This document shows positions 45 through 63,747 of a stretch of 64,000 bases of DNA, in pieces (the first letter of the stretch is position 1; each line of letters opens with the position of its first letter). The notes under the pieces were generated by a model, which saw nothing but the letters and a program-made list of their open reading frames with translations, searched no databases and had not been told where the DNA came from. Location of the stretch: positions 365,056,001 through 365,120,000 of the forward strand of contig OZ024741.1 in NCBI GenBank assembly GCA_964016885.1, in the 5' to 3' direction. A program made the translations under genes and the position numbers. The DNA is from Eledone cirrhosa. Taxonomy: Eukaryota.

Positions 45-228
45 ATAATTACAACAGTGACATAAACAAGTACTCACTTTTTTCATGAGAGGCTGAAAAA
101 ATTGGGGCCCAGAACCGAACGAAACTTGAGTACCTGTTTATATCACTGTTGTAATTATTTATACTAAACTAGCCCTATGGACTGAGTGCTCTTACTCTTG
201 GATATTTCCACTTAACTTTTCCTTCAGT
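45..228 (+). mobile_element. (TA)n-embedded foldback element with hammerhead-like fold and 3' tail
   Basis: Inverted arms 45-76/127-157; agg-CTGAAAA...GAAAC-ttga-GTA-cct at 90-135; tail carries ATGGACTGAGTG (177-188), also found at ~8025 and ~26398; TA runs on both sides. Confidence 0.7.
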
Positions 229-1636: not shown

Positions 1637-2325
1637 CTAGGTGTGGAGCCATTGTCAATTATGATAAAAGGGAGCCAATTTATCAACGTGGAAAGGGCTT
1701 TTTTTTCAGCTATTAGACTTGAAACAGTAATCACAGAATAATAGTTAAATATATTTAAAAGTAGAATCTACTCTCAATTTTGCACTTCATTAGCAGTCTG
1801 GTAACTACTAGGCTCCATGTTAATGGAAAGATAAGTAAGTTTCCGTGATGTTAATTTATTTAAATTCATATTAAAAGTGAATTAAAGTTGTTTGGGAGAA
1901 CCATTTGGACAAATGAAAAATAAAATAAAAATAAAATGAAAAATAAATGCCTTCCAGTAGTGCCCCTTCCGTGACCAATTATGAATCCTAATGACTATCT
2001 TTGCGCTATCAGCATTTGTGTACAGTACTTCAGGCACTTTATGGGTCACGGTGACTAACAAAATAATTAAACGCTGTCCTGGACAGTTCCCGAGGGCTGA
2101 ACAAAAAATATTGTATACAATGAGGTTCTAACAATGTAATTCATGTATTTTCTGTTACTTGGAATTTCAATTATGGTTGTACAAATTATTATAATGTTTG
2201 TTAAAAAATGTGTTCTCTGTTCAGCCTTTATTGTTGTAACAATTTCAATGCATGGGGTTGCAGAACAATAATATAAGAGACGTAAGATAAGAAAATTATA
2301 AAATTAACTTACTTACTAAAATATC

Positions 2326-2404
2326 ACTTCCAACTAATTAGTTTCTGGAATGGAGTAGATACATCTTCCGAAGAAGGTGTAGAGAAACATCCCGTCATCA
2401 GGAA
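2326..2404 (-). ncRNA. Type I hammerhead ribozyme (inverted copy of 2771-2852)
   Basis: Reverse complement of the 2771 motif with a shorter helix I. Confidence 0.7.
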
Positions 2405-2770
2405 CCATTGAACCACAATGTTATTAAGACAAAACCTATATATTTGCTAGCATCGATGTGCATTTGTATGTATATATATGTTACTAGGTATAAATTCTTT
2501 ATTATTATCTCCAAAATATTTGTCGAGCAATACTGGCCATGACTGCTGCTACGGTAGTAGGCTGGCCGCTGTCTTATTAACAACCCACTTTCCACCGATT
2601 GACCTCGACGTCACGTGTTCGATTCTTTTTGAATTTGCCACAGACACAGAGGCAGTGATTTTCTCAATGGCTAGGAAGTAAGTCCACGCTTTGCTATTTC
2701 CTATTCACTGATTTATTTTTTAATAAGCTTCCAGTGTCCTCGCTTTGCCTGGTAACTTATATGAGAATTG

Positions 2771-2852
2771 ACTTTCCTGATGACGGGATGTTTCTCTACA
2801 CCTTCTTCGGAAGATGTATCTACTCCATTCCAGAAACTAATTAGTTGGAAGT
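2771..2852 (+). ncRNA. Type I hammerhead ribozyme with extended helix II
   Basis: actttc-CTGATGA-c-gggatg...tacaccttc-TTCG-gaagatgta...cattcc-a-GAAAC-taatta-GTT-ggaagt; 6-bp helix I. Confidence 0.8.
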
Positions 2853-2900
2853 GATATTTTAGTAAGTAAGTTAATTTTATAATTTTCTTATCTTACGTCT

Positions 2901-2980
<80 letters not shown>

Positions 2981-3065: not shown

Positions 3066-3254
3066 ACGAAGGAGTTGTGGTAAGGAACAAGATGGACCAT
3101 AACGCACCAGAGTACTCAATACTTAGGGTAGTAGAGTGGGTAACAAGAGAAAGTATGGCCCTGACGCAGAGCTCAAGCCGTTACGACGGCTATTTCTGGA
3201 CTGAAATAGCCGTCAACATGGCTTGAGCTCTTCCGTCGGGGCCATACTTTCTCC
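3063..3254 (-). mobile_element. Short hairpin-plus-tail element in (TA)n (family C, copy 1)
   Basis: ~50-bp arms around ~3198 and ~85-nt tail containing GATGGACCATAACGCACCAGAGTACTCAAT; five copies in the window. Confidence 0.85.
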
Positions 3255-3264
3255 TATATATATA

Positions 3265-4763
3265 TAATTGAAAAAGTGGAGAATAACATGGTCAACAGTA
3301 AAAAAGGGGGATTTATTTACAGTCTAACAATTGTTTCACTGATAGAGTTGTCTAAAAATTGATAAACACTGAAAGTAGTACCACACAATTTAAATACATG
3401 TTATTCTCATCATATCCTCAGAGACTGAGAGAAAATATAAATATATGCGTAATCGGCAAATTTACAAATTCAAATTACCACATCAATAATGATATTAATA
3501 ATAAAGATATAGAGAGAAAAAAGGAAGGGGATAGATATAGTAAAGAGAGAAAGGAAGGGAAGAAGAAAGACGAAGGAAAAAGAAAAAGAGATAGAGAAAG
3601 AAGAAGAGGAGAAAATTATTACAGCTAAAAAAACCACAAGTAGAGATATCGTAGAAAAGAGAGAAACATGAAGACGGATAAACAGACGAGTATGATAGAC
3701 AAACACAAGTAGAAATAAGATGAAGAGAAGAAGGTAGAGGGGCAAATAGATGAATAAACGTTAATACATGAATAAATAAATAAATGTAAGAAAAAATAAA
3801 GATAGATGTATAGAAATATATGAGGAAATGAATGAAAACATATATAAAAAATTGATAGATAAATAAATAAGTAAATAAATGAATAAATAAATAAATAAAT
3901 AAATTACATCTAATGTAATATAAAATGGTATAATATGTGGAAAGTGGAGATGGGAATAAATAAATAAATGTGTAAAAAGGTATGGAGAATATTTAAACAT
4001 GTTAAGATTATTGAGAATAGTTTTTGATAATTGTTAAATATATGGATAGATATTAAGTTGAAAATATGATAATGTTGAATATATTTATGTGTGTATTGGT
4101 TATTTCAATAAGTAAATTAACTAGTTTAAGATATATTATATATGATAAAATGACCGTGATGAAATAAGTTTAGGGAGAGAGATGCAAAGATAGAGAGTGA
4201 AAGATAGAAATATATAAAATGAGAAAGTTAATATAAGAGGTTTAGATGCTGTTCTTTGGTAATTATAATGGTGAAGATTCTGCTGATAATGTGATATCAT
4301 AGTAGATCCAAATGGTACAATCAGGGTTATGGAATAGATAAGGTGGAATTAAGATGGTCTAAAGTTCTCGAATTTCGTTGCTGATTTATGCCGACAAAAG
4401 ATAATTCGTTCAATTCTATTGTTAAGAAGAAGTTTGCTGAAATTTAGAATTTGGAAAAGTTCCATATTTCAGAGACTCCAGTGGGACATACCAATTGATC
4501 TCATACTCTATGTTTGCATTCTTGAGTTGCCAGATTTTATTGGCGAGAGTTGTTGTATTCGAGAGATTCTATTACTCCAAGATAAACTTACATATTCGAG
4601 AGATTTTATTACTCCAAGATACACTTACATAGGAATACAAGTGAAATCATAAACTCGTCATCCACGTAAACCTCTTGTTGAATCATACAACGCCGTACGC
4701 TAAAACTATCCATGATAAGACTATTCACAACTCTAATTGGATTACCTATAACGAAATCTTGTT

Positions 4764-5060: not shown

Positions 5061-5252
5061 ATAACAAAGGAAATGTGGTAAGGAACCAGATGGACCATAA
5101 CGCACCAGAGTACTCAATATTTAGAGTAGTAGAGTGGGAAATAGGAAAAAGTATGACGCCGACAGCAGAGCTCAAGCCGTTTCGACGGCTATTTCTGGAC
5201 TAGAAATAGCCGTCGAAACGGCTTGAGTTCTGCCGTCGGGGTCATACTTTTT

Positions 5253-5255
<3 letters not shown>
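5061..5255 (-). mobile_element. Family C hairpin-plus-tail element, copy 2
   Basis: Near-identical to 3063-3254; flanked by TA runs. Confidence 0.85.
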
Positions 5256-6374: not shown

Positions 6375-6925
6375 TTGGATGAAAGGCAAAGCTGACCTCG
6401 GCGGGATTTGAACTCAGAACGTAAAGGGCCATAACTCTATGTTGGAAAGCATGGTGTCTGACGCTCTACCGATTCTGCCAATCTATCGATATTGCCAATA
6501 TGATATCCGCTGGTTGTAAAGACTGACAGTAAGAGCTGGAATTGGATCTAAGGACGCATATAGCTGGATCAGATAGCGTAAAGCATCCCATTCGATTCTG
6601 TAACAACTGCACCAATTCACAGCCGTTGGATTAGTATTTTATTTAGCACCCCGGAAAGAGTTGAAAAGTAAAGTTGGTCTCAGTCACATTTGAAATGGAA
6701 GAGCAGAATGCTAGAATAATGGTTTCTTATATAGGCACTAGGCCAGCAATATAGGGGAAGTGGAGAGTCGATTAAATCGACCCCAGTGCGTGACTGGTAC
6801 TTTATTTTATCGACCCCGTAAGGATGAAAGGTAAAGTTAACCTCCGCGGGATTTGAACTCTTAGAATGCTAAAATAATACCACGGCATTTAATACGACGC
6901 CCTAAGAGTTTGCCAATTCCAGAGC
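6375..6925 (-). mobile_element. Cluster of tRNA-derived SINEs (octopus OK-like)
   Basis: Reverse complement of GAGTTCAAATCCCGCCGAGG..TTTGCCTTTCATCC..GGGGTCGATAAAATAAAGTACCAG. Confidence 0.8.
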
Positions 6926-9960: not shown

Positions 9961-10082
9961 TCCAAAGCATCAATTGTTTTGCTATTTTTAGAAATGATGA
10001 AAATAGCATTTTCTAGGGTTTTTATAAAAAATCTTCAGTAATTATCAACATCAACATCACTTTTATTATTATTGTTGTTGTT

Positions 10083-10275
10083 GGGCGGTAGATTGGCAGT
10101 GTCGGTAGAGGGTCGGACGCCATGCTTTGACGTATAGAGTTACGGCCCTTGCCATTCTGAGTTCAAATCCCGCCGAGGTTAAATTTGCCTTTCATCCTTA
10201 CGGGGTCGATAAAATAAAGTACCAGTAATGAAATGGATAATTACTGGCCTTGTGCCAAAAGTAGAAACAATTATT
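10083..10275 (+). mobile_element. tRNA-derived SINE (octopus OK-like)
   Basis: A box (TGGCAGTGTCGG), B box (GAGTTCAAATCC) and conserved core. Confidence 0.85.
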
Positions 10276-10631
10276 GTTGTTGTTGTTGTTGTTGTTAGTG
10301 GTGGTAGTGGGCATGGTCGTAGGCGTAGTCATAGTAGAAGTAATACCCCTAAGCCTTATGTTCATTTAGCTTTTGTTGGAATTTATCAATAAAATTCTTT
10401 TCTTTAATTTTTCTCTTGATTTCACTTGGGCTGTGTAATTTGTAGAATGGAAATATTATAAATATGTTTCTTCATCTTTAACTTCGACAGCGTTTGCAAT
10501 CAGCCCTAACCTACAGAGCAGTGAAGAAAATTCTATCTATAGAAAACAAATTATGTATTTACATATATGTTCTGGGACAAAAATAATTTTCTTAAATGAT
10601 ATATTGATATATGATATATATATATATATAT

Positions 10632-11270
10632 AAAATGGAGATAAGAGGAGCAAGTAAGATTCAAACAATTGTTAAAAATAAATTATAAAATATAATTTAA
10701 ATATTTACCTATTCAATTTGCTTTTACCGACGGTTTCACCACTGTATCATAGGCACCCTGTCGGGATATTAATCTCCTTTTATATTTTCTCCGTTATGTA
10801 GAGAACAAATTCGTTGTTTTATTTAGCTGCTATTTTTAGTGGCGTGATAGACAACACGTCTATGTTTACTTCCTGCTTCTACTAAGGGCTGGTTCATGCA
10901 CAGGTCAAGTTTACGGTCTCATTCGATCCTGTGCTAGCTGGCAGGTGGCAATATATTTTGTCGTTCTTGGGACTTTTGTCCTAGGTAAGGAAAATGCTCT
11001 CTGAAGATCTGAACATTTCCATTGGAGGTCCCTAGGATCTCCAATCTTTTGTAAGGTGAAACCGTCGGTAAGAGCAAATGGAATAGGTAAATATTTAAAT
11101 TATATTTTTTAATTTATTTAAAAAAATTGTTTGAATCTTACTTGCTCCGCTTATCTCAATTTTATAGTTCTGGTATGTCAAATTAATACCATGGAACAAC
11201 CACTGTATCAGAGACACCCTATATATTTCCAGGGGTACTTAGTACCTGTGGGGATATTAATCTCCTTTTA
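10632..11270 (+). mobile_element. Foldback, terminally redundant hammerhead element (~485-nt unit)
   Basis: Arms ~10632-10740/11055-11165; tail sequence CCACTGTATCA..GGGATATTAATCTCCTTT occurs at both ~10739 and ~11200. Confidence 0.8.
10996..11075 (+). ncRNA. Hammerhead ribozyme with extended helix II
   Basis: gctct-CTGAAGA-tct..attggaggtc/gatctccaat hairpin..aggt-GAAAC-c-GTC-ggta-agagc. Confidence 0.65.
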
Positions 11271-28586: not shown

Positions 28587-28806
28587 AGCTGGTGGATTGG
28601 CAGCCTCGGTAGAGGGTCGGACGCCATGCTTTCCAGCATAGAGTTACGTCCCTTTACGGTCTGATTTCAAATCTCGCCGATGTTAACTTTGCCTTTCATC
28701 CTTACGAGGTCGATAAAATAAAGTACCAGTCACGCGCAGGGGTCGATTTAATCGACTTTCCCATCCCCCAAAATTGTTGGCCTTGTGCCAAAAGTAGAAA
28801 CAATTA
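28587..28806 (+). mobile_element. tRNA-derived SINE (OK-like)
   Basis: Full head and core. Confidence 0.85.
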
Positions 28807-29061
28807 TCTGGTGTATAGTGCGTGGTTTATGTGTTGAGGGCGTAACTATTCTAAGCTTAGAATAGTTACACTATTTCGGAATTATATTTTCCACGCAATA
28901 TCACAAATAAATATATTTCCAACGCAGATGACTATAAATATATTCGATCATTATAAACAATAATTGAGTAAAGTAACAGAAAACAGTGGATAGGTAGACA
29001 CAAATCGACTATTATTATAGTAAAAATATGTTGATTTTTTTATAATTGGGCAGCTGGATGA

Positions 29062-30519: not shown

Positions 30520-30915
30520 CATTTGGCAGTATCGGTAGAGGGTCGGACGCCATGCTTTCCAGCGTAGTTACGTCCCTTTACCATCTGAGTTCAAATCCCG
30601 CCGAGGTTGACTTTGCCTTTCATCCTTACGGGGTCGATAAAATAAAGTACCAGTAATGCACTGGTAATTGCTGGCCTTGTGCCTAAAGTAGAAACAATTA
30701 TATATTTCTACCTCGGTGGATTAGGGCGGTGGATTGGCAGTATCGGTAGAGGGTCGGACGTCATGCTTTGACGCATAGAGTTACGGCCCTTGCCATTCTG
30801 AGTTCAAATCCCGCCGAGGTTAACTTTGCCTTCCATCCTTACGGGGTCGATAAAATAAAGTACCAGTAATATAGTGGGTATTTGCTGGCCTTGTGCCAAT
30901 AGTAGAAACAATTAT
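30520..30915 (+). mobile_element. Two tandem OK-like SINEs
   Basis: Copies at ~30520-30700 and ~30723-30915. Confidence 0.85.
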
Positions 30916-31627
30916 ATATTTCTACCGCACTGTATCGGCTTTCTGAAGTCCTCATGAATCAAGTATTATATATCTTAAAATTAGCTATTATACACACACA
31001 CACATATATATATAAGAGAATAAAGAAAATCATTCGTACAGTACAATAAAATACGTTTGAAAAATGAAAATAATAACTTTTTCTGATAGTTGTTATTACT
31101 TTAATCGTGATCATATGTTTTCAATGTGTAGTTTACGTTGCTCTAGTGAAGTGCTTTGATTGAGTTTCTCACAATTTTCAAACTAGCTCTTTTGTCTGGC
31201 TGTTAATATATCGTACCATGTATGCAGAGATAAGGGTGGGGTAGGTGGTAAGCATGTTTATACAAACAAAATGCAAAAAATAAATCGAAGATTTATGTGT
31301 CATTGTTTGGTGATTGTGTCATTGTTTGGTGATTGAAAGAGACAAGAAATGTGGGTTAGGTGAGGGGAGAGTATTGGGATGGTCGGGTCAAATAAATTCA
31401 ATTAAGGAGGGTGTCATGAGTGAATCAAATCAATTAAGGAAAGAATTGAACACTATGATAGGGGCCAGATTTATAATGAGTGGTCAGGAAAAAGGGAACT
31501 TTTTTGTTCTACAAGTGACACAGAAACATGTACATACATACATGCATATATACATGCATAAGCAGGTTTTGTGCTGAGAGAAGATGCCATTTATATCAAC
31601 CCACAAACATATCAATTTAAATGCCAC

Positions 31628-31671
31628 CTGTCGATTATCGCTGATATTTGTTTTGATTCAGCGTCTGCCAT
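31628..31671 (-). CDS. Candidate host first coding exon (MADAESKQISAIID-R)
   Basis: agtagcATGG start context; 44 nt to AG|GT donor (phase 2). Confidence 0.4.
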
Positions 31672-31864
31672 GCTACTTCTTCTCTTGCTTATACGTCTAC
31701 ATGCACCTCACGCAAACATTTTTGTCAGTCTTTGCTCAAGATGCAGATAAAATTTGTTAAGCATTGAATGAGTCTTAAACTATTATCAAACAAACTATAT
31801 TATCTTCAGATATAATATAAAACAATAACAGCAATAGTATTTATTATTATTTCTAATTTAGGTG

Positions 31865-32700
31865 AGGGCGGTGGATTGGCAGAGGGTCGGACGACATGTT
31901 TTGCAGCATAGAGTTACGGCCCTTTACGTTCTGAGTTCAAATCCTGCCAAGGTTAACTTTGCCTTTCATCCTTACGGGGTCGATAAATTAAAGTATCAGT
32001 CACGCATTGGGGTCGTTTAATCCACTTTCCCCTCCCTCAAATTACTGGCCTTGCGCCTATACTAGAAATCATTATTTCTAATTTAGGCACAAAACCAAAC
32101 TTGATTAAATCAAGCCCAGTATTTAATGGTACTATTATATATTTTATCGAATCTGAGAGATGAAAGGGATTTGAGCTCGGAGGGATTTGATCTCAGAAAG
32201 TAAAGAACCGAAATAAATGCTGTTATGCATTTGTCCGACGCTCAGATGACTCTATCAATTCCCTGCTCTAAATAATAATGTTCTATGATTTAGGAACAGG
32301 GCCAATAATTTAGGGGAAGGGAAAATCGATTAAATCGTCTCCAGTCCGTTACTGGTACTTTAGTTTATTGACCCCGTAAGTACGAAAGGCAAAGCTAACC
32401 TCGGCTGGATTTGAACTCTGAACGTAAAGAGCCGAAAGATATATCACAAAGCTTATTTCCGATGTTCTAATGATTCTGCTAATCTACAACAACAACAACA
32501 ACAACTTTTCTGCTTTTGATCCAAGGTCAGCAATTTAAAGGGATACCAGTGCGTTACTGGTACTTTATTTTATCGATCCTGTTTGAATGAAAGGAAAAGT
32601 TGACCTCAGCAAGATTTGAACACAGAACGGAAGGAGCCGAATGAAATACGGTAAAGCACTTTACCGATGCTGTAACGATTAGGTTAATCCACCACCCAAA
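31865..32700. mobile_element. Cluster of four OK-like SINEs (one plus, three minus)
   Basis: Repeated B box and core motifs. Confidence 0.8.
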
Positions 32701-33019
32701 CAACGACAACAACACCATCAACAACTATAACCTAAGTACGTAGAAGTAACTACTCTAAAGACTAAACGAAATGGAATAAAGAAAATTACAATATGTTTGA
32801 TATGCTATGGAGATGCATATTAAGATAGATAGTAAATTGAGATCGTGCCCGGTGTTAGTAATAAGAAAATAAGATTTAAAAACATTTTGTTGTAATATTT
32901 AGATTTTTTTGTAGCGGGTGGGGAAAAAGTTTTAGAAATATTTCAGTTGTATTTTAACTACAAGCAATCGGAATCTGAGAGCCAGTTTTTATTAAACAGA
33001 CAGCTACTTCCTGTGTATT

Positions 33020-39730: not shown

Positions 39731-40472
39731 AAAGTATGCCCATAGAATCATTTGATAAGATATATACACCATCTCCTCTGCCAATCAGTATAATCAACCA
39801 CACAAACAAACAATTGAACAAGGCTATAAGATTAAAAGGCACCTATGAAGAAATAATAGATAAATAAACGACAGCCATCTGTTCGCGATCAACAGCTATA
39901 GAATATTTACCCAGCATTTTGATAGCACGTGGAAATCGATTAAATATATCGTCAAGCATACACAATTAGGTATAAAATTAAAGTTAGAAGAAAAAATGTA
40001 TATAAACATACCAAGATTACGTTTCTACCCCTTGGAGTTTCATTCGCTTTTGGAAATATCCGATCAAGGATAAATTCACGAGCTTCAAAATCATCAGGAA
40101 ACAAACTCACATGGACGAAGATTTTTCTTAAATGATCCCCGCCAGAAACGAATTCAAAATGGCTAAGAACTGTGACGTGGCGGTGGTCAAGTCAGAAAGA
40201 ATGTGATTGGTGCCTTACGGCGAGTGCGCTGGTTGCTAGCAAGCGCAGCCTAATATTGCCTAAATTGCATATCAATCTTATGGGAGATTATCAAATATAA
40301 AGATTTACATATACACAAACTATACAAACTCATAGATATATAGATATATATGTTTTTGGCAACCATTCACGATGTGGCTGAATGACGAATTAATTAATTA
40401 AATAATCAGAGCAATATACACTAAAGTATGTCCATAGAATCATTTGATAAGATATATACACCATCTCCTCTC
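39728..40472 (-). mobile_element. Terminally redundant (~690-nt unit) hammerhead element in (TA)n
   Basis: Direct repeat AAAGTATG.CCATAGAATCATTTGATAAGATATATACACCATCTCCTCT at 39731 and 40424; relative at 63348-63640. Confidence 0.8.
40021..40102 (-). ncRNA. Type I hammerhead with extended helix II and a stable helix III
   Basis: gtttc-CTGATGA-ttttg..tatcc-ttgatc-ggata..cgaat-GAAAC-tc-caag-gg-GTA-gaaac. Confidence 0.7.
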
Positions 40473-40614
40473 ATATATATATATATATAATTTCAATGTT
40501 ACATATATGTATAGATGTATGGATGTATAGATTCTTGAACATGATGAACATTAAATATACATATACATATATACATACTCTCTCCATTTAAATATACATA
40601 TATACATATATATA

Positions 40615-41030
40615 TATAGAAATTACATGAATCAAAGTTCTGTTCAAATCATTTATTCGCTTACAATTGTTTCTTCCAAACCTAGGTTTGGAGTCTTCGG
40701 AGCAATTTTTCAATAATTGTTTACATACTTGACCTCCTTTTCAACACAAGAGACATACAGAAACATATGTATATATTGATGCACAGTGGGTTGACATCCA
40801 TTATAATATTTAAGCATAGCAGTTTACAATCATTGAAAAATTGCTCCGAAGACTCCAAACCTCGGTTTGGAAGAAACAATTGTAAGCGAATAAATGATTT
40901 GAACAGAACTTTGATTCATATAATTTCTATATAACTGCTCTGTAGAACAACTGATGTTATTACATTGCGCTATATATAACTATAAAAGGTTTTACTGTAT
41001 ACATAACCATAAATAGTATCCTTAATACTA
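40615..41030 (+). mobile_element. Foldback element with two divergent hammerheads (40659-40703 minus, 40843-40887 plus)
   Basis: Arms ~40615-40713/40833-40932; gct-CCGAAGA-c-tccaaac-ctcg-gtttgga-a-GAAAC-aatt-GTA-agc. Confidence 0.8.
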
Positions 41031-41400
41031 TATATATATATATATACCGTCTCACCTACCATTCCATCACCCTACTACTCCGGCGACATATCCTCCATTC
41101 CTTCCGCACCCACTCTTCTGACCCCCGTCACTTCTCGGTTTTTTTAAAGATTACCCAGACAGAGACACACATACATATGCATGCGCACAAGAATAACTGT
41201 TTATACAAAACCGTTTTTTTTAATTTCAGCTAAACGCGCTCCATCAACCACTTTACTAAAAAAATATGTCGTACACAAAACGCCAGCATCAACAGTTTTC
41301 TAAGAGATGTCAACATGAATGGACCTGTTATTTTTATCTAAAGATATTTTTCCCAATTACATCCTGTCCATCCCTTCAATCGATCATATTTCTCATTCTT

Positions 41401-41436
41401 TCTTCTGATGAAGGACTACTGTCCGAAACGTTAAGA
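41401..41436 (+). ncRNA. Minimal type I hammerhead (PLE type, loopless palindromic helix III)
   Basis: tctt-CTGATGA-a-ggac-tact-gtc-c-GAAAC-GTT-aaga. Confidence 0.85.
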
Positions 41437-41524
41437 CCCTCTTCCTGCTATATCAAGCGTTAACCTAATATATTCCTTCCATATACTGTACCGATTGTGT
41501 TGTTATTTCTGTCAAGCTTTTACA

Positions 41525-42224: not shown

Positions 42225-42825
<601 letters not shown>

Positions 42826-42826
42826 C

Positions 42827-42864
<38 letters not shown>

Positions 42865-42867
<3 letters not shown>

Positions 42868-44838
42868 GGAACATAGTATAAAGCATAAGTTTTACTGAGA
42901 GACAGTGTAGGAATAAGAACATAACATACATAGGTGAAACAGACCGTAGCATAGGAGAACGGATAAATTAACATTGGTGAGATGAGAACTCCAGGATGGG
43001 ATAAACTCATCAGATCTCCACCAACATGCCAAATTAGAACATCGGGGCACATTAGAGAACATAGAGATACAAATTATATGGTACGATGGATGAAAGAAGC
43101 GTTGTCTATGAATTTGTAAATGGTGAACATTTTAAAATTCGGATGTTGGTTAGGTGCACAATTGGCGATATGTTCACTAAACGGAATCTTCCTGTATTCC
43201 TGTATTTTGATTTGTGATTTATGGACGGACATACGTTGTCGGAGGCTTTTTTTTGTCTGTCCTATGTAGTGCTCTTGACAACCTGAGCAGGTCAACATAT
43301 AGATTAGGTTTTCAGATGCACATGTAAAGTTGTGTTTAACTGTGAAATGTTGCCCTTGTTTAAAATGGAATGTTGAACCTTCTATTAGATTTATGCATAT
43401 GCCACAGTTGGGCCTTCCGCATGTTTTTACTGTAGGGTTCATTGTGAGGGTTGGTTGGATTTTGGCTTGCGTGAGGATGTTTTTTTATGGATTTAGGTTG
43501 TCTTTTGCTCTTTATGATGTGTGTTTGGAGGATTTTGTTCATTCTTGGGTCTCTTTTTAGTAAAGGAATGTTCTGGAGGATGTGGTCGAATGCCTCATTG
43601 TTGATGGGGTTGTGTGTGAAGATGTATGTTAGAGTGTTCTGTTGTGGTTCATTCATGAGTTTGGGGTGTCTGAGTTCCTGGATGTTGAGTTTTAGGTCAC
43701 GTTGGAATCCATTGTTGATTAGGGATGGTGGGTAGTTTCTGCTGACAAGTGTGTTCTTTAATTCTTCTAGTCGTGTGTAGCAAGTGTATTTATCTGAAAC
43801 TATTGTGCAGATCCTTCTGGCTAGGTTATAAGGAATTGCCATTTTGGTATGGCGAGGGTGGCATGAGTTGAATGGAAGATATAGTTTGGTGACTGTGGGT
43901 TTGTAGTATATGTCTGTTTCTATTTTGTTGTTTGTTTTCTTGATGAGGATGTCGAGGAAAGAGAGTTTTTCATGGCTGTAATCCATTGTACCAAAACCAA
44001 ATCCCTATGTTTCTCAAAAGAGTTACCTCCCTCATACCCTACCTACTTTAAAGCTTTCCCCATTTAGAAATTTATAGATAACGCTTTTTTCATCCATCGT
44101 TCTAATAAGGAAATGTATTTCAATAATTAAATTCCAACCTCTACTTAATGCACTAAACTTCGGACTAAACTAAAACTGGAACGAACAATGAACCAAAACC
44201 AAATCCCTATGTTTCTCTAAAGAGTTACCTACATCACATCCAACCTAATCCTTTTTTTTAAATATAAATTGTATACTCTCTCTCACCTACTTGACCACCC
44301 TGAATTACCCCCGCCCCCTGCATATTAATTCTCTAAAAAGAGAAATCATATCAAACCCCAGCCTACCATTTGCCTCCATCATGGATCAACTAAGCACTCT
44401 TGCCATAATAACACATTTTGAACTGCTTATCTTCAAGAACTATGCCTGTCAATAATATTATTTTTTATTTCCCATTACCCTATTATGCTCCACATTACCC
44501 CCTTTTTTTCTTTTTTCTTTTCACTTCAAAAACCTTGTTTGTAAATAACATTATTCTTTCTTCACCATTTCCTTAACATGTTCAACATCACCATTTTACA
44601 CCATTACATATTCCCCCCTTTTGATAATGCATAAAATGCTGAAACCGGTAATAGACAATTATTAAATATATAAATAAATAAATGCCATTGTTAATTAATA
44701 AATAAATTAACTAATACCTCAACACTTCACACAAAGTAAAATATTTTGTTTTAAACATTTTCTAACCCAGAAAAAAGATAAAAAAATAAAAAGGCAAAAA
44801 AATACTTTTCTTCCTAATAATCGTCTTTTTCTCCCTAT

Positions 44839-44842
<4 letters not shown>
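42865..44842. mobile_element. Penelope (Poseidon-like) element with inversion: coding part on minus, 3' end on plus
   Basis: LSFLDI..TDIYYKPT..SCHP..IPYNLARRI (43360-43986); CGRPNCGIC..NLIYMLTC..YIGQT..RMSVH (43074-43442); plus strand 44060-44160 repeats the C-terminus; TTGATAA-tgca-taaaa-tgct-GAAAC-cg-GTA at 44621-44650. Confidence 0.9.
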
Positions 44843-44899
<57 letters not shown>

Positions 44900-44953
44900 A
44901 ACTCGTGTGCCCTTCTCCACATTTTATATATATATATATATATATATTATATA

Positions 44954-46017
44954 CTAGCATTGTTACCCGGCGTTGCACGAGATAAGGTATTTTGGAACGC
45001 GGGCCGCCAACGACCCTAATCGTGGAAAAACTGCATGCCTGGACAATATGTAAAGAAAATAAACCGAATCCTCTGATGGCTGGATAATCTTTAAGATTTT
45101 CCTCGATGAAGCAGGAAAAATGCAAGTTTTCACCTAGGGGATCAAGAAAATAAATTTTTGTTATGTGCATAATATGCCTTGAAATTTCAGGAAAATCGGC
45201 TAGACGTAACGCCTCCAAAAAGCCCTAAAAATCTGAAAAAATGAAGTATTTCACCTAATGCGGGCCCTAGGCCATAAACAAGTTGGATTTTCTTTGCTCA
45301 CGGTATGAAGAAGAGACTAACTAATACATAGTTACAATTTCAAGGAAATCGGTCCGAGATAACGCCTAAAAAAACCTTAAAAAGCTTAAAAAACGCAGTT
45401 TTTCACCTAATGCGGAGGCTAGGAGATCAACAAGTTGAATTTCTTAGGTGTATAACACTCCCTGAAACATAAATAATACACATGTAAAGTTTGAAAAAAA
45501 TCGGTTGGGTACTTCTCGAGTTTTAGGGATTCAAACTCACACACACAGACAGACATACTCAGGGAAGTGACGTAATGCAGACAGCCAGACATACAGACAG
45601 ACAGATATTATAAGGGTGTGACGTTATATGTATGTATCTATCTAAAAAGAGAAAGACTAAGAATTATAGAGAGAGATCGCTAAATCACATAATGCGGTCC
45701 CTAGGGCATTGAAAATTTGAAATTTTTCTTGCGCAGAACACACCCTGAAACTGGCAGTATCGGTAGAGGGTCGGACGCCATGCTTTCCAGCAGAGTTACG
45801 TCCCTTTACGATCTGAGTTCAAATCCCGCCGAGGTTGACTTTGCCTTTCATCCTTACGGGGTCGATAAAATAAAGTACCAGTAATGCACTGGGTAATTTG
45901 CTGGCCTTGTGCCAAATGTAGAAACAATTATATGTGTAAAGTTTGAAAACAGTCGGTTGGGTGCTTCTCTAGTTTTAGGGATTCAAACTCACACACACAC
46001 GGAGAGAGACATCCTCA

Positions 46018-46022
<5 letters not shown>
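44954..46022 (-). mobile_element. Non-autonomous Helitron with internal ~130-150 bp subrepeats and a nested SINE (45751-45930)
   Basis: CTAG plus CCCGGCGTTGCACG hairpin in a TA run; repeated TTTCACCTAATGCGG, AAATCGG and TAGGGATTCAAACTCACAC units. Confidence 0.7.
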
Positions 46023-46060
<38 letters not shown>

Positions 46061-46076
46061 ACGCATGCACACACAC

Positions 46077-46178
<102 letters not shown>

Positions 46179-46179
46179 T

Positions 46180-46228
<49 letters not shown>

Positions 46229-46382
46229 AAAATATACAGTCACTAAGAGTTCACTACAGCTGCAATTTCGCATTTTCATTTTTACTTCCAAAATTACATT
46301 CGTAGTGTTCTTGGAAAAAATCTTCAGGTGAATTTTAACATTTCTATATCATTTTGGTTGAATACGTCTAGGTAATATTATT

Positions 46383-46525
46383 AGGGTCGGACGCCATGCT
46401 TTACGGCCTGAGTTCAAATCCCGTCGAGGTTAACTTTGCCTTTCATCCTTAAGGGGTCGATAAAATAAAGTACCAGTAATGTACTGAGTAATTTGCTGGC
46501 CTTGTGCCAAAAGTAGAAACAATTA
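46383..46525 (+). mobile_element. OK-like SINE, internally deleted
   Basis: B box and core. Confidence 0.8.
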
Positions 46526-46679
46526 TTATAGTTACAGTATTTTATAATTTGTTATTTCTACTTCTTAGATAGGTCATAGGAAAATAACGTATTAAATATT
46601 TTAAGTTTAATAGAATTACAGAATACATCGCTTTACCATAAATGAAACTAACTCAAATTGAAACACTATCACTGTCCAT

Positions 46680-51470: not shown

Positions 51471-51559
51471 ATGTATGTATGTATGTATGTATGTATGTAT
51501 GTATGTATGTATGTATGTAGGTATGCATGCATGTATGTATGTGTATATATATATATATA

Positions 51560-51878
51560 TATTGTTATACTTTGGGAGGGTCATGTTGCCAATAAGAAAC
51601 ACACGCACCTGTTGCTTTCACTTCAATTTATTATAATAAATTTATAAATTTAGGAATTTATCATTTTCCGGTTGGTTGGTTCCACAACCAGATGATTGTT
51701 TATATATTGTCAAAGTTCTTTCATCACACATTCTGTGACCTCTTCAATGACTGGGGATTCTTTTCTTTGTTTTTGTGTGTGTTTCTTATTGGCAACATGA
51801 CCCTCCCAAAGTATAACAATATCGGTTTCAACACACGTTTTCAGATAAAGAATCTTGCTAAACAAATTCAGAAACGAA
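51560..51878 (+). mobile_element. Foldback-plus-tail element in (TA)n; no intact hammerhead seen
   Basis: Arms 51560-51605/51776-51821; tail to 51878; arm start TATTGTTATACTTTGGG also at 19424. Confidence 0.7.
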
Positions 51879-55846: not shown

Positions 55847-55870
<24 letters not shown>

Positions 55871-56275
55871 CAATAAAAGGAATTCCAACTTTGTCTGATT
55901 TACTCGTTTTATTTACAATCCTTTAAAATGTAAAATGGTATTTTGAATGAAATAGTATGGTAGAATATTAAATGTTAAGTGTTAATCGAACAAGCACTTT
56001 CATGCTTTCGTAATCTTCAGATTCATATTCTGTGGTGACAGTCAAGTTTGCAATTTTCAACAGTTGAAAATTGCAAACTTGACTGTCACCACAGAATATG
56101 AACCTGAAGATTGCGAAAGCATGAAAGTGCTTGTTCGATTAACACTTAACATTTAATATTCTACCATACTATTTCATTCTAATACCATTATACATTTTAA
56201 AGGATTGTAAATAAAACGAGTAAATCAGACAAAGTTGGAATTCCTTTTATTAATATAATCTTCTATACAAAATCA
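55871..56275 (+). mobile_element. Near-perfect ~380-bp palindrome with two divergent hammerheads (55988-56024 minus, 56100-56136 plus)
   Basis: Centre TTCAAC-A-GTTGAA at ~56062; gaac-CTGAAGA-t-tgc-GAAA-gca-t-GAAAG-tg-CTT-gttc. Confidence 0.85.
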
Positions 56276-56901: not shown

Positions 56902-57731
56902 GTGTATATATACATATGTATATATGTATGTATGTATATATATATATATATATATGGGTGTATGTATGTGCGCATATGTGCGTGTGCATCGGTATAACGT
57001 ATGGCTTCGCAACAAGTTGCTTTGCAATCTATTTTTCGTTTTATCTGTATGGCAGTATATCACTATCAGAGTAAATTGAATTGAATTGATTTGAACTGAA
57101 TGTGCAAAGCTTCGGTTTTCTCATTAGAATACACATATACATCTCAATCCTGTACAACAAAACTGTTAAAGAAATTACAATAGAAGAACAGAGTTTCGGA
57201 TTCTGAAAGATATTGAAAGAATCACATAAATAGACGAACAAAACATCCTACTCAAGTAGATGATATTTATGAATATTAAAAAAAATAAACATTTATTGTA
57301 TAAGAATCTACACTCTTAAAAGTCTTTCAAACCACTAGACCATTGTAATTTTGTATATGTATCATTCGTCTTCTTTTCTATTACTGACTGATATAATACT
57401 TTTTGCTTTCCTCAGTTTGCCGCTACAACCAAGCTCCATTAATATAAACACACTTGATGCAGCTTTCATTTCCATTTTTTGCTGTATTCCAGTCTGCAAA
57501 ATCAACATTTTTTTAAAGATATATTTCCCAGTGTGTCCTTTCAGGAAATGATTCTCTTTAGAATTACTTCTGAAATCATTCGCTTATTTATTTACAAAAT
57601 GTACAAAATTCTGTCAAAATTTATTTAAACCCAAGGCAGGCAATTTTTATATACAAAATTCGATATGACTTTATGGTTAGGAATGGAGAACTATTCAAGG
57701 ATTCCATTCTATTCTGCCGTTCCTTTATTAT

Positions 57732-58105
57732 GGTGGATTGGCAGTATCGGTAGAGGGTCGGACACCATGCTTTGACGCACCGAGTTACGGCCCTCGCCAT
57801 TCTGAGTTCAAATCCCGCAGAGGTTAACTTTGCCTTTCATCCTTACGGGGTCGATAAAATAAAGTACCAGTAATGTACTGGGTGATTTCTGGTCTTGTGC
57901 CAAAAGTAGAAATAATTATATTTGGTAGTATCAGTGGAGCGTCGGACGCCATGCTTTGCAGCATAGAATTACGCCCCTTTATGGTCTGAGTTTAATTCCC
58001 GCCGAGGTTAACTTTGCCTTTCATCCTTATGGGGTTATTGAAATAAAGCACCAGTAATGAACTGGAATAATTGCTGGCCTTGTGCCAAAAGTAGAAACAA
58101 TTATT
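57732..58105 (+). mobile_element. Two tandem OK-like SINEs
   Basis: Full head and core twice; further 3' fragments at 52463-52535(-), 53335-53445(-) and 59790-59940(-). Confidence 0.85.
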
Positions 58106-59324
58106 TTACTTCTTTCAGTCATTAGAAGGTGGCTATGCAGGGGCATATCCTTAATTTAGTCGATTATATTGGTAGCAGTATTTATTTCTTAAAGTCTGGT
58201 ATCTATTTTATCTTTACATTTTGTCGACCAGATAAGTTAGGGGACATAAGCTCAAGATGCAAACCTAAACACAGACAACAAATGAACACACGTATATATA
58301 TATATATATATATACGTAGGTGCTCTCTCTCACACACACACATACGTACACACACACCCGCACATACGCACATACACACACAGAAATACACACAGACACA
58401 CACATATGTGTCCGTATATGCCTTCGTTTATGTCCCAAAACATATCGTCCACAGAAAGCGATCGATAAAATAAGTGCTCGACTTCAAAAAACAATGCTGT
58501 CGTCGATATGATAGACTAACATCTTTAAAGGTGACACCAAGTATATTAAAAATATAAGTTTATCTATATAATACTAAAACTCTGTGATTGCTTGCTTGTC
58601 TGAATGTAATACAGCCAAAAGGGCGCATAATGGGAAAATAGTTTGAAAGGACGTTGAAATGGGAATACAAATGGAATAAAACAAGTTTCGCGTAAATTGG
58701 AGCACGGGTTCGCGAGATATGGGGTGCCTTCATAAACAAAGAAAAAGAAAGATATAGAGGAAGAGATAGTGGTTGTGACAGAGTAGATTGAAAGAGAGAC
58801 ATAGAGAGAGGGAGAGGAGACAGAGAAGGAAAATGGAAGAGAGCTGGTGGTGGTGTTGTATATATATATATGTGAGTGTGTGTGTATATACATATATATG
58901 GCATCAGCCATTCACTCACACGAGGCCCCCTTTTCAGGCGGAATGCGCTCCTCTCGACTTTATGGAGGTCAATGTCAAAGGTCTCAACGCCTGATGGAGG
59001 ATAAGGAAGTGGATGATCAAACCTATGTATTTGGTTGTTTTTCGTTCCTATGCATTGCCAAGTTTATTTAGGTTTGATCAATTATACCTAGCGATGGAAA
59101 AGTACAGCAATATAACCCTTTATACAATGTATATAGAATTTTATGATTACATAAGCGTGTAGCGTTTACTTGGCCATGATACAGTCGGTCCAAGCATATC
59201 ATCAATATTTTCAAACGGGATAAAATACATGATTCGCCACTTGGATTTGGACTTAGCACGGAGTGATAAAAAAACGTGTATTGTATGCGGTTAGTTTTGG
59301 CGTTCTACTGCTACACAGTAATAT

Positions 59325-61672: not shown

Positions 61673-62261
61673 ATATAAAGTGTGCGTATGTGTGCACATG
61701 GTGTGCGTAAATGTTCATCATTGTACATTTACGTTTGGTGCTGTCTGTCGTTATAGCTCCTAACCTAGCAGTTCAACAAAAACAGATCGGTGAAATAAGA
61801 ACTGAAGTTGAGTTATAGCGATTAACTTCCTTTAAGATGGCGCCCCTACCATGGACGCGTTCTAATTATACAAATCAGTAACAGAGTAAAATACTGAAAT
61901 AATATAAAAGTGCATATGAACGCACACACGTAGTCTGGTACAGATGTATTGATACATACAAACTCAACTACAAACACATATATGTATAGATTTTAAGAAA
62001 AATGAAAGTAGAATATATAAGATCGGCCATATATCGGGGCTAATCATATGAAATACTGGTAGTTGTTAAATAATAAAATATTCATTGAGAATTTCAATTG
62101 TTTATCTTAGTGCTAGATACTTTTTACGGAGATTCATGAATCGGGCAAGGATATCCAGCGTTTAGAGAAATCAGAATTGTTTAAGGGCTGGAATGGTCCT
62201 TCGTCGTTTTTGATGATGAATGTTCTCGTTTCTCGAACAATGTGCGATTGAAAAGAAGAGA

Positions 62262-62450
62262 TAATTGTTTCTACTTTTGGCACAAGGCCAGCAATTACCC
62301 AGTACATTACTGGTACTTTATTTTATCGACCCCGTAAGGATGAAAGGCAAAGTTAACCTCGGCGGGATTTGAACTCAGAATGGCAAGGGCCGTAACTCTA
62401 TGCGTCAAAGCATGGCGTCCGACCCTCTACCGACGCTGCCAATCCACCGG
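62262..62450 (-). mobile_element. OK-like SINE, near consensus
   Basis: Reverse complement of 30723-30915. Confidence 0.9.
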
Positions 62451-62454
62451 AGAT

Positions 62455-62573
<119 letters not shown>

Positions 62574-63160: not shown

Positions 63161-63347
63161 TATATATATATATCATCCCTCACTCTCAAGCGTGAACCTA
63201 ATACAAACACTGTTCTTAACTGCACTCCTTGTTTTTGTTTTGTTATTTGCCAATATATATATATATATATATATAGTAAAAGGGCGAAAGCAGCGATTCG
63301 TTGCTTAAACTTTAATCTGTTATTTTAATAAAGAAATATATATATAT

Positions 63348-63747
63348 ACTATAAATTATGTCCTTAGAATCAATTGATAAGATATATACTCAATTTCCTC
63401 TCCCAATTATCATAATCAACCACACAAAAAAACAATTAAACCAGGATATAAGATTAAAAAGCACCTGTGAAGAAATAATAGATAAATATATATCTTATCA
63501 ATTGATTCTAAGGACATAATTTATAGTATATTTCTCTGATTATTTAATTTATTAATTCATCCTTGAGCCACATCGTGAATGGTTGCCAAAATCATATCTA
63601 TAAATTTGTCTAGTTTGTGTATATGTAAATCTTTATATTTTATATATCACCCGGAGATTTACCCATTTGCATTGTCGAGGCTTCCAAACGACTTAAAGAT
63701 ATTTACTGATTGTTCCACAATGCTTCAAGCAAACTTCAATACTCTCT

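What the first reader, a model, noticed from the sequence alone, without database searches (positions are those of the whole stretch)
40615..41030. The inverted arm starts at an internal TATA-like microhomology: a priming signature
Seen: where the tail-less arm meets (TA)n, the matching point in the tailed arm is followed by TA-like bases: TTTC-TATATA (~40928), TTT-TATA (~11163), ATAG-TATAT (~63526), AAC-AATAT (~51818), AATTATTTATA (~153-163) and TAATATA (~2269). In family C all five copies start the arm at the same site while the inner junction varies. Inference: the second (TA)n target end primes at a fixed internal TA motif (twin-priming-like), which would explain both the tail length and the duplicated inversion.
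Basis: partly seen in the sequence, partly recalled or inferred. Interest (0 to 1): 0.7.

Follow-up and report, generated by a model that had tools for sequence, protein, structure and literature searches.

The report
Penelope ends primed at TA motifs
This mirror-image repeat is a cut-short copy of a Penelope-type jumping gene whose two ends fall at two fixed sites, each marked by a short TA motif and a small predicted RNA stem, likely because both broken DNA strands pair briefly with the element's RNA there before copying starts.

Summary
Observation confirmed. 40619-41028 is a 5'-truncated insertion, in (TA)n, of a Hydra-clade Penelope-like element (PLE); full-length tandem copies with an RT plus GIY-YIG frame exist elsewhere in the genome. 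Ends are fixed: 92 alignment ends at TTTC|TATATA, 87 at the tail end, 2 TA-flanked exceptions (208 examined). Inner junctions scatter. The TA match beats composition across 34 harvested repeat clusters (mean 2.5 vs 1.1 nt, p 5e-6). End-only 9-nt stutters, one type containing read-through sequence, suggest primer-RNA pairing. The architecture and the two internal start sites are published; the in vitro paper calls those sites non-homologous to the target, so the pairing is the new detail. This scan already reported twin priming and the stems on other DNA of this genome.

The parts
40606..40618 (.). left (TA)n flank (inside a longer degenerate TA tract)
40619..40828 (-). tail-less inverted arm (210 nt); element 3' end points left and stops at site 2 (…AATTTC); reaches 108 nt further 5' than the other arm
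   Evidence: L001 maps to reference 4051>3836
40826..40828 (.). inner head-to-head junction, 3-nt microhomology ACA
40826..41028 (+). tailed sense arm: 3' end of the PLE pseudo-LTR plus tail
   Evidence: reference 3944>4212
40841..40889 (+). hammerhead-like motif with non-canonical core CCGAAGA and palindromic stem III ACAATTGT; predicted cut about 43 nt above site 2; activity doubtful
   Evidence: z -1.64, not significant; core in 127 of 146 copies; layout read by eye against recalled hammerhead consensus
40928..40933 (+). site 2 TA motif (TATATA): the point where the inverted arm ends
40937..40970 (+). bulged stem GCTC-hairpin-TT-GAGC 9 nt below site 2 (this copy reads GCGC)
   Evidence: 37 of 46 family members; window sequence
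40928..41028 (+). tail, 101 nt here; 164 nt in the reference copy (63-nt deletion in this copy)
40971..40978 (+). longer internal TA run that is not used as an end (negative control)
41029..41046 (.). right (TA)n flank; site 1 lies at 41028|41029 and reads TAATAC|TATTAAC in tandem read-through copies
11163..11166 (+). site-2 TA motif of another family (arms 10629-10740/11055-11166, tail about 106 nt), followed by a bulged stem
63527..63531 (+). site-2 TA motif of another family (arm 63344-63388, tail about 221 nt); no stem found by the strict pattern
51819..51822 (+). site-2 TA motif of another family (arm 51559-51607, tail 60 nt); no stem found by the strict pattern
156..158 (+). site-2 TA motif (3 nt) of the family at 40-227
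2271..2275 (-). site-2 TA motif of a ~520-bp tandem-unit family (arms 2271-2404/2774-2907)
5064..5254 (.). family C example: 80-nt tail, arm ends at TTCC|TAT; other copies near 3066, 19212, 50537, 56426

Best explanation
The repeat is a 5'-truncated, head-to-head insertion of a Hydra-clade Penelope-like retrotransposon in (TA)n, whose two outer ends lie at two fixed internal sites, likely because each nicked target strand primes reverse transcription at one of them after pairing 3-6 bases with a UA motif in the RNA. Shown: element identity, fixed ends (one of each kind per insertion), scattered inner junctions, TA match above chance at the arm end and present at the tail end, bulged stems 8-9 nt downstream, unused longer TA runs, end-only stutters. 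Inferred: the GIY-YIG nuclease nicks both strands of (TA)n; the stems position the enzyme and the UA motif sets the register; both cDNAs stop at random lengths and are joined head to head by short microhomology or filler; the tail is the distance between the two sites; overlap of the arms needs a second RNA or a second pLTR in a tandem transcript.
For: Tandem full-length locus with inverted arm, pLTRs and an RT plus C-terminal GIY-YIG frame. 92 and 87 of 208 alignment ends at the two sites; only 2 other ends abut (TA)n. 65 of 65 insertions with both anchored ends in view have one end of each kind; 57 and 60 distinct inner positions; either arm longer, 39 vs 21; lengths uncorrelated, rho 0.14. 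TA excess, also when anchored on the stem: 12 of 15 with at least 3 nt vs 3.3 (other 7-mers) and 6.7 (local shuffle, p 0.003). Tail end followed by TAT in read-through copies of three families: this one (5 passages), family C (2 loci), the 2271 family (2 passages). Stem in 14 of 36 clusters vs 0.5 expected, and at both sites here. Site-1 duplications: 9 of 13 read TTAATAC-TA-TTAATAC, which restores the read-through TATTAA (4-nt match in the RNA, 1 nt in the inserted DNA); none has the 8-nt period that the 2-nt TA match in DNA would give; the 8 of these 9 that were viewed abut (TA)n and they fall in several haplotypes. Site-2 9-nt duplication: 40 of 40 at arm ends, 0 in read-through, although 55 of 100 sampled sites are read-through. 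In vitro, a PLE protein nicks and extends both strands and starts at two internal sites that bound the tail (PMC11167929).
Against: The only biochemical study found the start sites not homologous to the cut DNA (other clade). 11 of 34 clusters have about 1 nt or less of match. The effect is weaker outside the window (p 0.02 on mean length). The stem-anchored window (-10 to -4) was chosen after seeing the data. 22 of 36 clusters show no stem by the strict pattern. Site-2 stutters and (CT)n runs could arise after insertion by slippage beside a long (TA)n: 21 of 52 other TC|(TA)n boundaries also carry three or more CT units vs 17 of 47 here. A TA-preferring nuclease would also leave TA at the ends. 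No empty target site and no RNA was seen.
Confidence: 0.6

Rival explanations
1. The two start sites are set by RNA structure alone, and the TA motif is incidental or marks something else (an AU-rich unpaired spacer); no primer-RNA pairing is needed.
For: Stems at both sites; longer TA runs unused; clusters with a stem and 0-1 nt match exist; non-homologous initiation in vitro.
Against: Alternating TA is enriched even against a shuffle of the local spacer (p 0.001-0.003); duplications start exactly where the copy again ends in TA or TTAA.
Confidence: 0.2
2. The ends are made by the element's (TA)n-specific nuclease re-cutting a tandem or hairpin DNA intermediate at internal TA motifs, which is then joined to the target.
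For: Craig et al. ascribe the tail to nuclease resolution of the intermediate; the PAc nuclease cuts ATT next to the ORF-pLTR junction on both strands; the nuclease prefers TA targets.
Against: Longer TA runs are ignored; one end of each kind in 65 of 65; end-only stutters look like repeated initiation; RT starts mapped in vitro match the tail boundaries.
Confidence: 0.12
3. One cDNA folds back and self-primes (snap-back), so the inverted arm is a copy of the first arm.
For: Proposed from palindromes at inverted junctions in rotifer Penelope; most arms overlap.
Against: The tail-less arm reaches further 5' than its partner in 39 of 65, and 13 of 65 do not overlap at all, so it holds sequence that the other arm lacks; in this copy 108 nt.
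Confidence: 0.05
4. The palindromes are MITE-like DNA transposons that target TA, or later inversions.
For: Inverted repeats in TA context.
Against: One-sided tail, variable inner junction, and continuity with an RT plus GIY-YIG frame.
Confidence: 0.01

Closest known systems
Hydra clade of C-terminal EN+ Penelope-like elements, e.g. Hydra-1_Obim (Craig et al. 2021, PMC8557442; sections 3, 6, 11, 15 and supplement passages read)
   Same: RT plus C-terminal GIY-YIG; RWR (RWK), DKT, CxCX5C, CxxC and CxH, no CCHH; (TA)n targets; partial tandems, inverted truncated copy, tail.
   Different: Unit is 4.2 kb (Hydra generally under 3 kb); tail 164 nt (60-220 nt in neighbouring families) against the 30-40 bp described; hammerhead core is non-canonical; that paper has 0 occurrences of 'microhomolog'.
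Poseidon PAc internal initiation (Frangieh et al. 2024, PMC11167929; parts 1-2 of 4 read, supplements not seen)
   Same: Both strands nicked and extended; two internal start sites bound the tail; start sites lie near a stem-loop.
   Different: There the sites are stated to be non-homologous to the cut DNA and lie in the ORF; here both have a 3-6 nt match to the target and lie before the ORF.
L1 twin priming (Ostertag and Kazazian 2001; not held, recalled; title seen in a reference list) and L1 snap-velcro priming (PMC3649969, passages read)
   Same: Second target strand primes internally through short complementarity; about 4 terminal bases matter and one mismatch is tolerated.
   Different: In L1 the second site is opportunistic and the two cDNAs do not overlap (recalled); here it is fixed, marked by a stem, and the arms overlap in 52 of 65.
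EN-minus Athena and Coprina PLEs, and telomerase (as summarised in PMC8557442 Introduction)
   Same: Short internal RNA stretches complementary to the repeat primer assist attachment.
   Different: They lack a nuclease and act at telomere overhangs; here the target is an internal (TA)n.
Adineta vaga Penelope inverted pLTR plus 31-bp tail (Arkhipova et al. 2013, PMC3846280; passages and Discussion read)
   Same: Head-to-head inverted pLTR with a one-sided tail.
   Different: Explained there by self-priming; its 4 mentions of microhomology concern 5' junctions, deletions and a reference, not the outer ends.

Membership tests
EN+ Penelope-like element | Single frame with RT and GIY-YIG nuclease | tested here: met
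   YRDD RT core and C-terminal IIY…YIG region in the tandem locus (both copies carry stops or frameshifts). Pfam GIY-YIG E 0.029, below its cut-off; no Pfam RT hit; no informative PDB hit. The RT call rests on motif-by-motif agreement with the Hydra alignment.
EN+ Penelope-like element | Partial tandems (pLTR), inverted 5'-truncated copy, one-sided tail | tested here: met
Hydra clade | C-terminal nuclease, RWK, DKT, CxCX5C linker, CxxC and CxH, no CCHH | tested here: met
   (RVRWRTF, HADKT, CNCRSNRTC, CNLC, CQH, one Cys in the GIY-YIG core); compared by eye
Hydra clade | Insertion into (TA)n | tested here: met
   nearly all outer ends abut TA microsatellites
Hydra clade | Canonical hammerhead near the 3' end | tested here: inconclusive
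   No CTGANGA in the reference unit; hammerhead-like layout with CCGAAGA core in 127 of 146 copies; fold z -1.64; no Rfam hit in the window
Hydra clade | Placement in an RT phylogeny | not tested
   Reference proteins were seen only as text in a paper's supplement; no tree was built
Naiad or Chlamys | N-terminal nuclease | tested here: not met
   The nuclease is C-terminal
L1-type twin priming | Second primer anneals by short homology at an internal site | tested here: met
   (sequence signature only)
L1-type twin priming | Variable second site and non-overlapping arms (recalled) | tested here: not met
   Fixed site in 92 of 94 TA-flanked non-tail ends; overlap in 52 of 65
L1-type twin priming | Target-site duplication | not testable with these tools
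   Hidden in (TA)n; no empty site recovered

The most novel reading that the evidence does not exclude
Hydra PLE RNA carries two miniature telomerase-like initiation cassettes (a UA alignment motif 5' of a bulged stem). The RT anneals each target strand there and can realign and re-copy the first 2-9 bases, writing 9-nt repeats and (CT)n runs at the insertion ends. This would be primitive repeat addition by telomerase's sister enzyme and a source of compound (CT)n(TA)n microsatellites.
Probability: 0.3. Interest if true: 0.72.

Novelty: new variant of a known kind. Interest (0 to 1): 0.42.

Why it matters
How PLEs make inverted ends and tails, and why they favour microsatellites, is named as open in PMC8557442. 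The one in vitro study says initiation needs no homology. Thousands of copies here give exact, mutable elements (two 3-6 nt motifs and two stems) with which to test whether a telomerase-related RT aligns its primer by pairing. The element class and its layout are ordinary.

Tried and rejected
Rfam scan of the window: no hit. Pfam and PDB gave no RT hit; the Atlas search could not read the sequence. Run search: no RNA holder listed. Laying contigs of 4 runs on 40200-41500 gave no empty allele, because other family copies swamp it. I first took the frame for a Naiad; rejected, the nuclease is C-terminal. I guessed that AAAACC|TATATAT was the tail end of the 2271 family; wrong, 99 of 100 pass it, and it became a negative control. 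(CT)n runs as proof of RT stutter: they depend on the template allele (10 of 14 with TCTC vs 8 of 40 otherwise, p 0.0009; 0 of 77 read-through) and show no age trend (44 pairs, rho -0.01; some divergences are inflated by alignment past the junction), but they are as common at other TC|(TA)n boundaries (21 of 52), so not accepted as proof. Hammerhead cut as the inner junction: only 1-2 of 65 lie near it. Literature: 8 searches found no paper reporting target microhomology at both PLE start sites or stutters there. Ostertag and Kazazian 2001 and Gladyshev and Arkhipova 2007 are not held; Evgen'ev and Arkhipova 2005 and Arkhipova 2006 were not looked up; the supplements of PMC11167929 (Fig. S1B, S2) were not seen and may bear on the homology question.

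Full report
What is at the coordinates. The window is C2:365056001-365120000 of a 3.0-Gb genome; from its size, its microsatellite content and the element match I infer an octopus, which was not tested. 40619-41028 lies between (TA)n tracts and holds arms 40613-40720 and 40826-40933, 97% complementary. Mapped on a full-length relative, the left part (40619-40828) is the element's 3' region in antisense and the right part (40826-41028) is the same region in sense plus a tail; they meet at a 3-nt overlap, ACA.

Identity. A search of the genome found a locus built as (TA)n, inverted tail-less arm, truncated copy, two full units of about 4.2 kb, tail, (TA)n. [quoted passage not shown] These are the features of the Hydra clade in Craig et al. 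2021 and agree by eye with the Hydra alignment in its supplement, which includes Hydra-1_Obim, a (TA)n inserter. Pfam support is weak (GIY-YIG E 0.029, no RT hit). An exact 29-mer occurs 473 times.

Are the ends fixed? In 120 loci, 208 distinct alignment ends were examined: 92 at site 2 (reference 4040-4052), 87 at site 1 (4203-4215), 29 elsewhere, mostly alignment breaks; only 2 of those 29 abut (TA)n. The loci were selected by the window copy or by an anchor about 50-80 nt above site 2, so arms that end further 5' are seen only through their partner. All 65 insertions with both anchored ends in view have one end of each kind. Inner positions are scattered (57 and 60 distinct values), either arm can be longer (39 vs 21, 5 equal), 13 do not overlap, and the lengths are uncorrelated. 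In family C, 92 of the first 100 of 5,482 hits end at TTC(C)|TA; its inner junctions vary, but many cluster about 55-65 nt above the site.

Is the TA match above chance? I harvested inverted repeats that abut (TA)n from the window and the loci, kept 110 of 183 (symmetric cases and junctions inside degenerate TA tracts were dropped) and clustered them into 36 groups, some probably not PLE ends. Against random junctions in each element's own sequence, 34 clusters give a mean match of 2.54 vs 1.11 nt (p 5e-6), with 17 at 3 nt or more vs 4.3. Clusters with no window member give 2.1 vs 1.16 (p 0.02). Eleven clusters have about 1 nt or less. So the match is real but short and not universal.

First, the tailed end is also internal: in tandem read-through it reads TAATAC|TATTAAC (5 passages). 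The same TAT follows the tail end in family C (2 loci) and in the 2271 family. Second, TA is not sufficient: the 9-nt run in this family's tail is never an end, and a 7-nt run in the 2271 family is passed in 99 of 100 hits. Third, earlier notes of this scan pointed to twin bulged stems, which I tested: RYTC-hairpin-NN-GARY starts 3-12 nt below the junction in 14 of 36 clusters vs 0.5 expected, at both sites of this family (37 of 46 at site 2; 3 of 4 read-through copies at site 1), and not after the unused TA run. Anchored on the stem, alternating TA of 3 nt or more lies at -10 to -4 in 12 of 15 clusters, against 3.3 for other 7-mers and 6.7 for a local shuffle (p 0.003; window chosen after seeing the data).

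Stutters. Of 93 site-2 ends, 46 are exact, 26 gain CT units, 17 lose one, and 4 carry 9- or 11-nt duplications; 0 of 77 read-through passages gain CT (9 of 102 anchor hits were dropped as not ends). Genome-wide the 9-nt unit TAATTTCTA is duplicated at 40 places, all at arm ends, while 55 of the first 100 of 899 sites are read-through (counted by hand). At site 1, 9 of 13 duplications read TTAATAC-TA-TTAATAC. That restores TATTAA, which is present in the tandem RNA but not in an inserted end, and fits a 4-nt realignment on RNA; the 8-nt period expected from a TA match in DNA was not seen. They abut (TA)n and fall in several haplotypes, mostly with non-duplicated nearest neighbours. Against over-reading: (CT)n runs are as frequent at other TC|(TA)n boundaries (21 of 52 vs 17 of 47), and slippage beside a long (TA)n after insertion can explain the site-2 changes.

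Mechanism (inferred). The nuclease nicks both strands of (TA)n. The RNP presents two sites, each a few bases 5' of a stem. Each target end pairs 3-6 bases with the UA motif, sometimes across a mismatch, and primes. The two cDNAs abort at random and are joined head to head. The tail is the distance between the sites. Overlapping arms need a second RNA or a second pLTR in a tandem transcript; PAc is predicted to be a dimer. I put this at 0.6, structure-only initiation at 0.2, nuclease re-cutting at 0.12, snap-back at 0.05.

Comparison and novelty. The inverted copy and tail are described. Two internal starts that bound the tail, on both strands, were shown in vitro for Poseidon, and stated to be non-homologous to the target. 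L1 twin priming is the nearest analogy (recalled) but has no fixed second site. Eight searches found no report of target homology at PLE start sites; several older papers are not held. This scan already recorded twin priming and the stems on other DNA of this genome. The element is a new member of a known clade. The quantified TA match at both sites, the long tails and the read-through stutter are a variant detail that differs from the published mechanism and can be tested directly. Interest 0.42.

Noticed in passing
window 2245-2907; L178-L189: ORF-less family with a tandem unit of about 520 bp and a CTGATGA hammerhead-like core (retrozyme-like), 3,900 exact anchor hits; same two-site end rule; the window's site-2 arm runs through site 1 of the unit before it, which points to a tandem template.
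   Followed up: partly
window 41400-41435: Minimal hammerhead-like motif (CTGATGA, stem, GAAAC) in a very high-copy repeat (depth about 10^6); probably another PLE end.
   Followed up: no
window 42549-42719, inside 42225-42862: Nearly perfect 82-nt-arm palindrome with a 7-nt loop; the inverted repeat extends outwards and carries a tail of about 66 nt on the left.
   Followed up: no
window 55866-56257: Near-perfect 390-nt palindrome with 1 nt between the arms and a 41-nt tail that ends in (TC)n(TA)n.
   Followed up: partly
window 44803-44925; L039: (TA)27 sits at what appears to be the site-2 TA motif inside a family copy (TTTTC-(TA)n-CCCAACTCG): expansion of, or insertion into, the element's own motif.
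   Followed up: no
L150 (C1:18803600-18803849): Family C insertion in which both arms end at site 2 (no tail); not seen in 65 insertions of the main family.
   Followed up: no
L102:4694-4725 and L060:853-1143: Two inverted arms that end at non-canonical internal positions next to (TA)n: opportunistic L1-like twin priming, or later deletion.
   Followed up: no
L173, L174: Family C copies that read through the tail end and then jump back to site 2 or repeat the tail (template jumps).
   Followed up: partly
C1:154826166-154830807: Whole insertion repeated about 5 times at a period of about 1 kb; local tandem amplification or an assembly artefact.
   Followed up: no
window 6377-6868, 10072-10289, 28590-28819, 30521-32713, 45752-46533, 57725-58115, 62252-62459: Another abundant family of about 190 bp (SINE-like) in at least 12 copies, unrelated to the finding.
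   Followed up: no
many loci, e.g. L025, L028, L047, L093: Different PLE families nest in one another's (TA)n flanks and build long chains of element ends separated by TA tracts.
   Followed up: no
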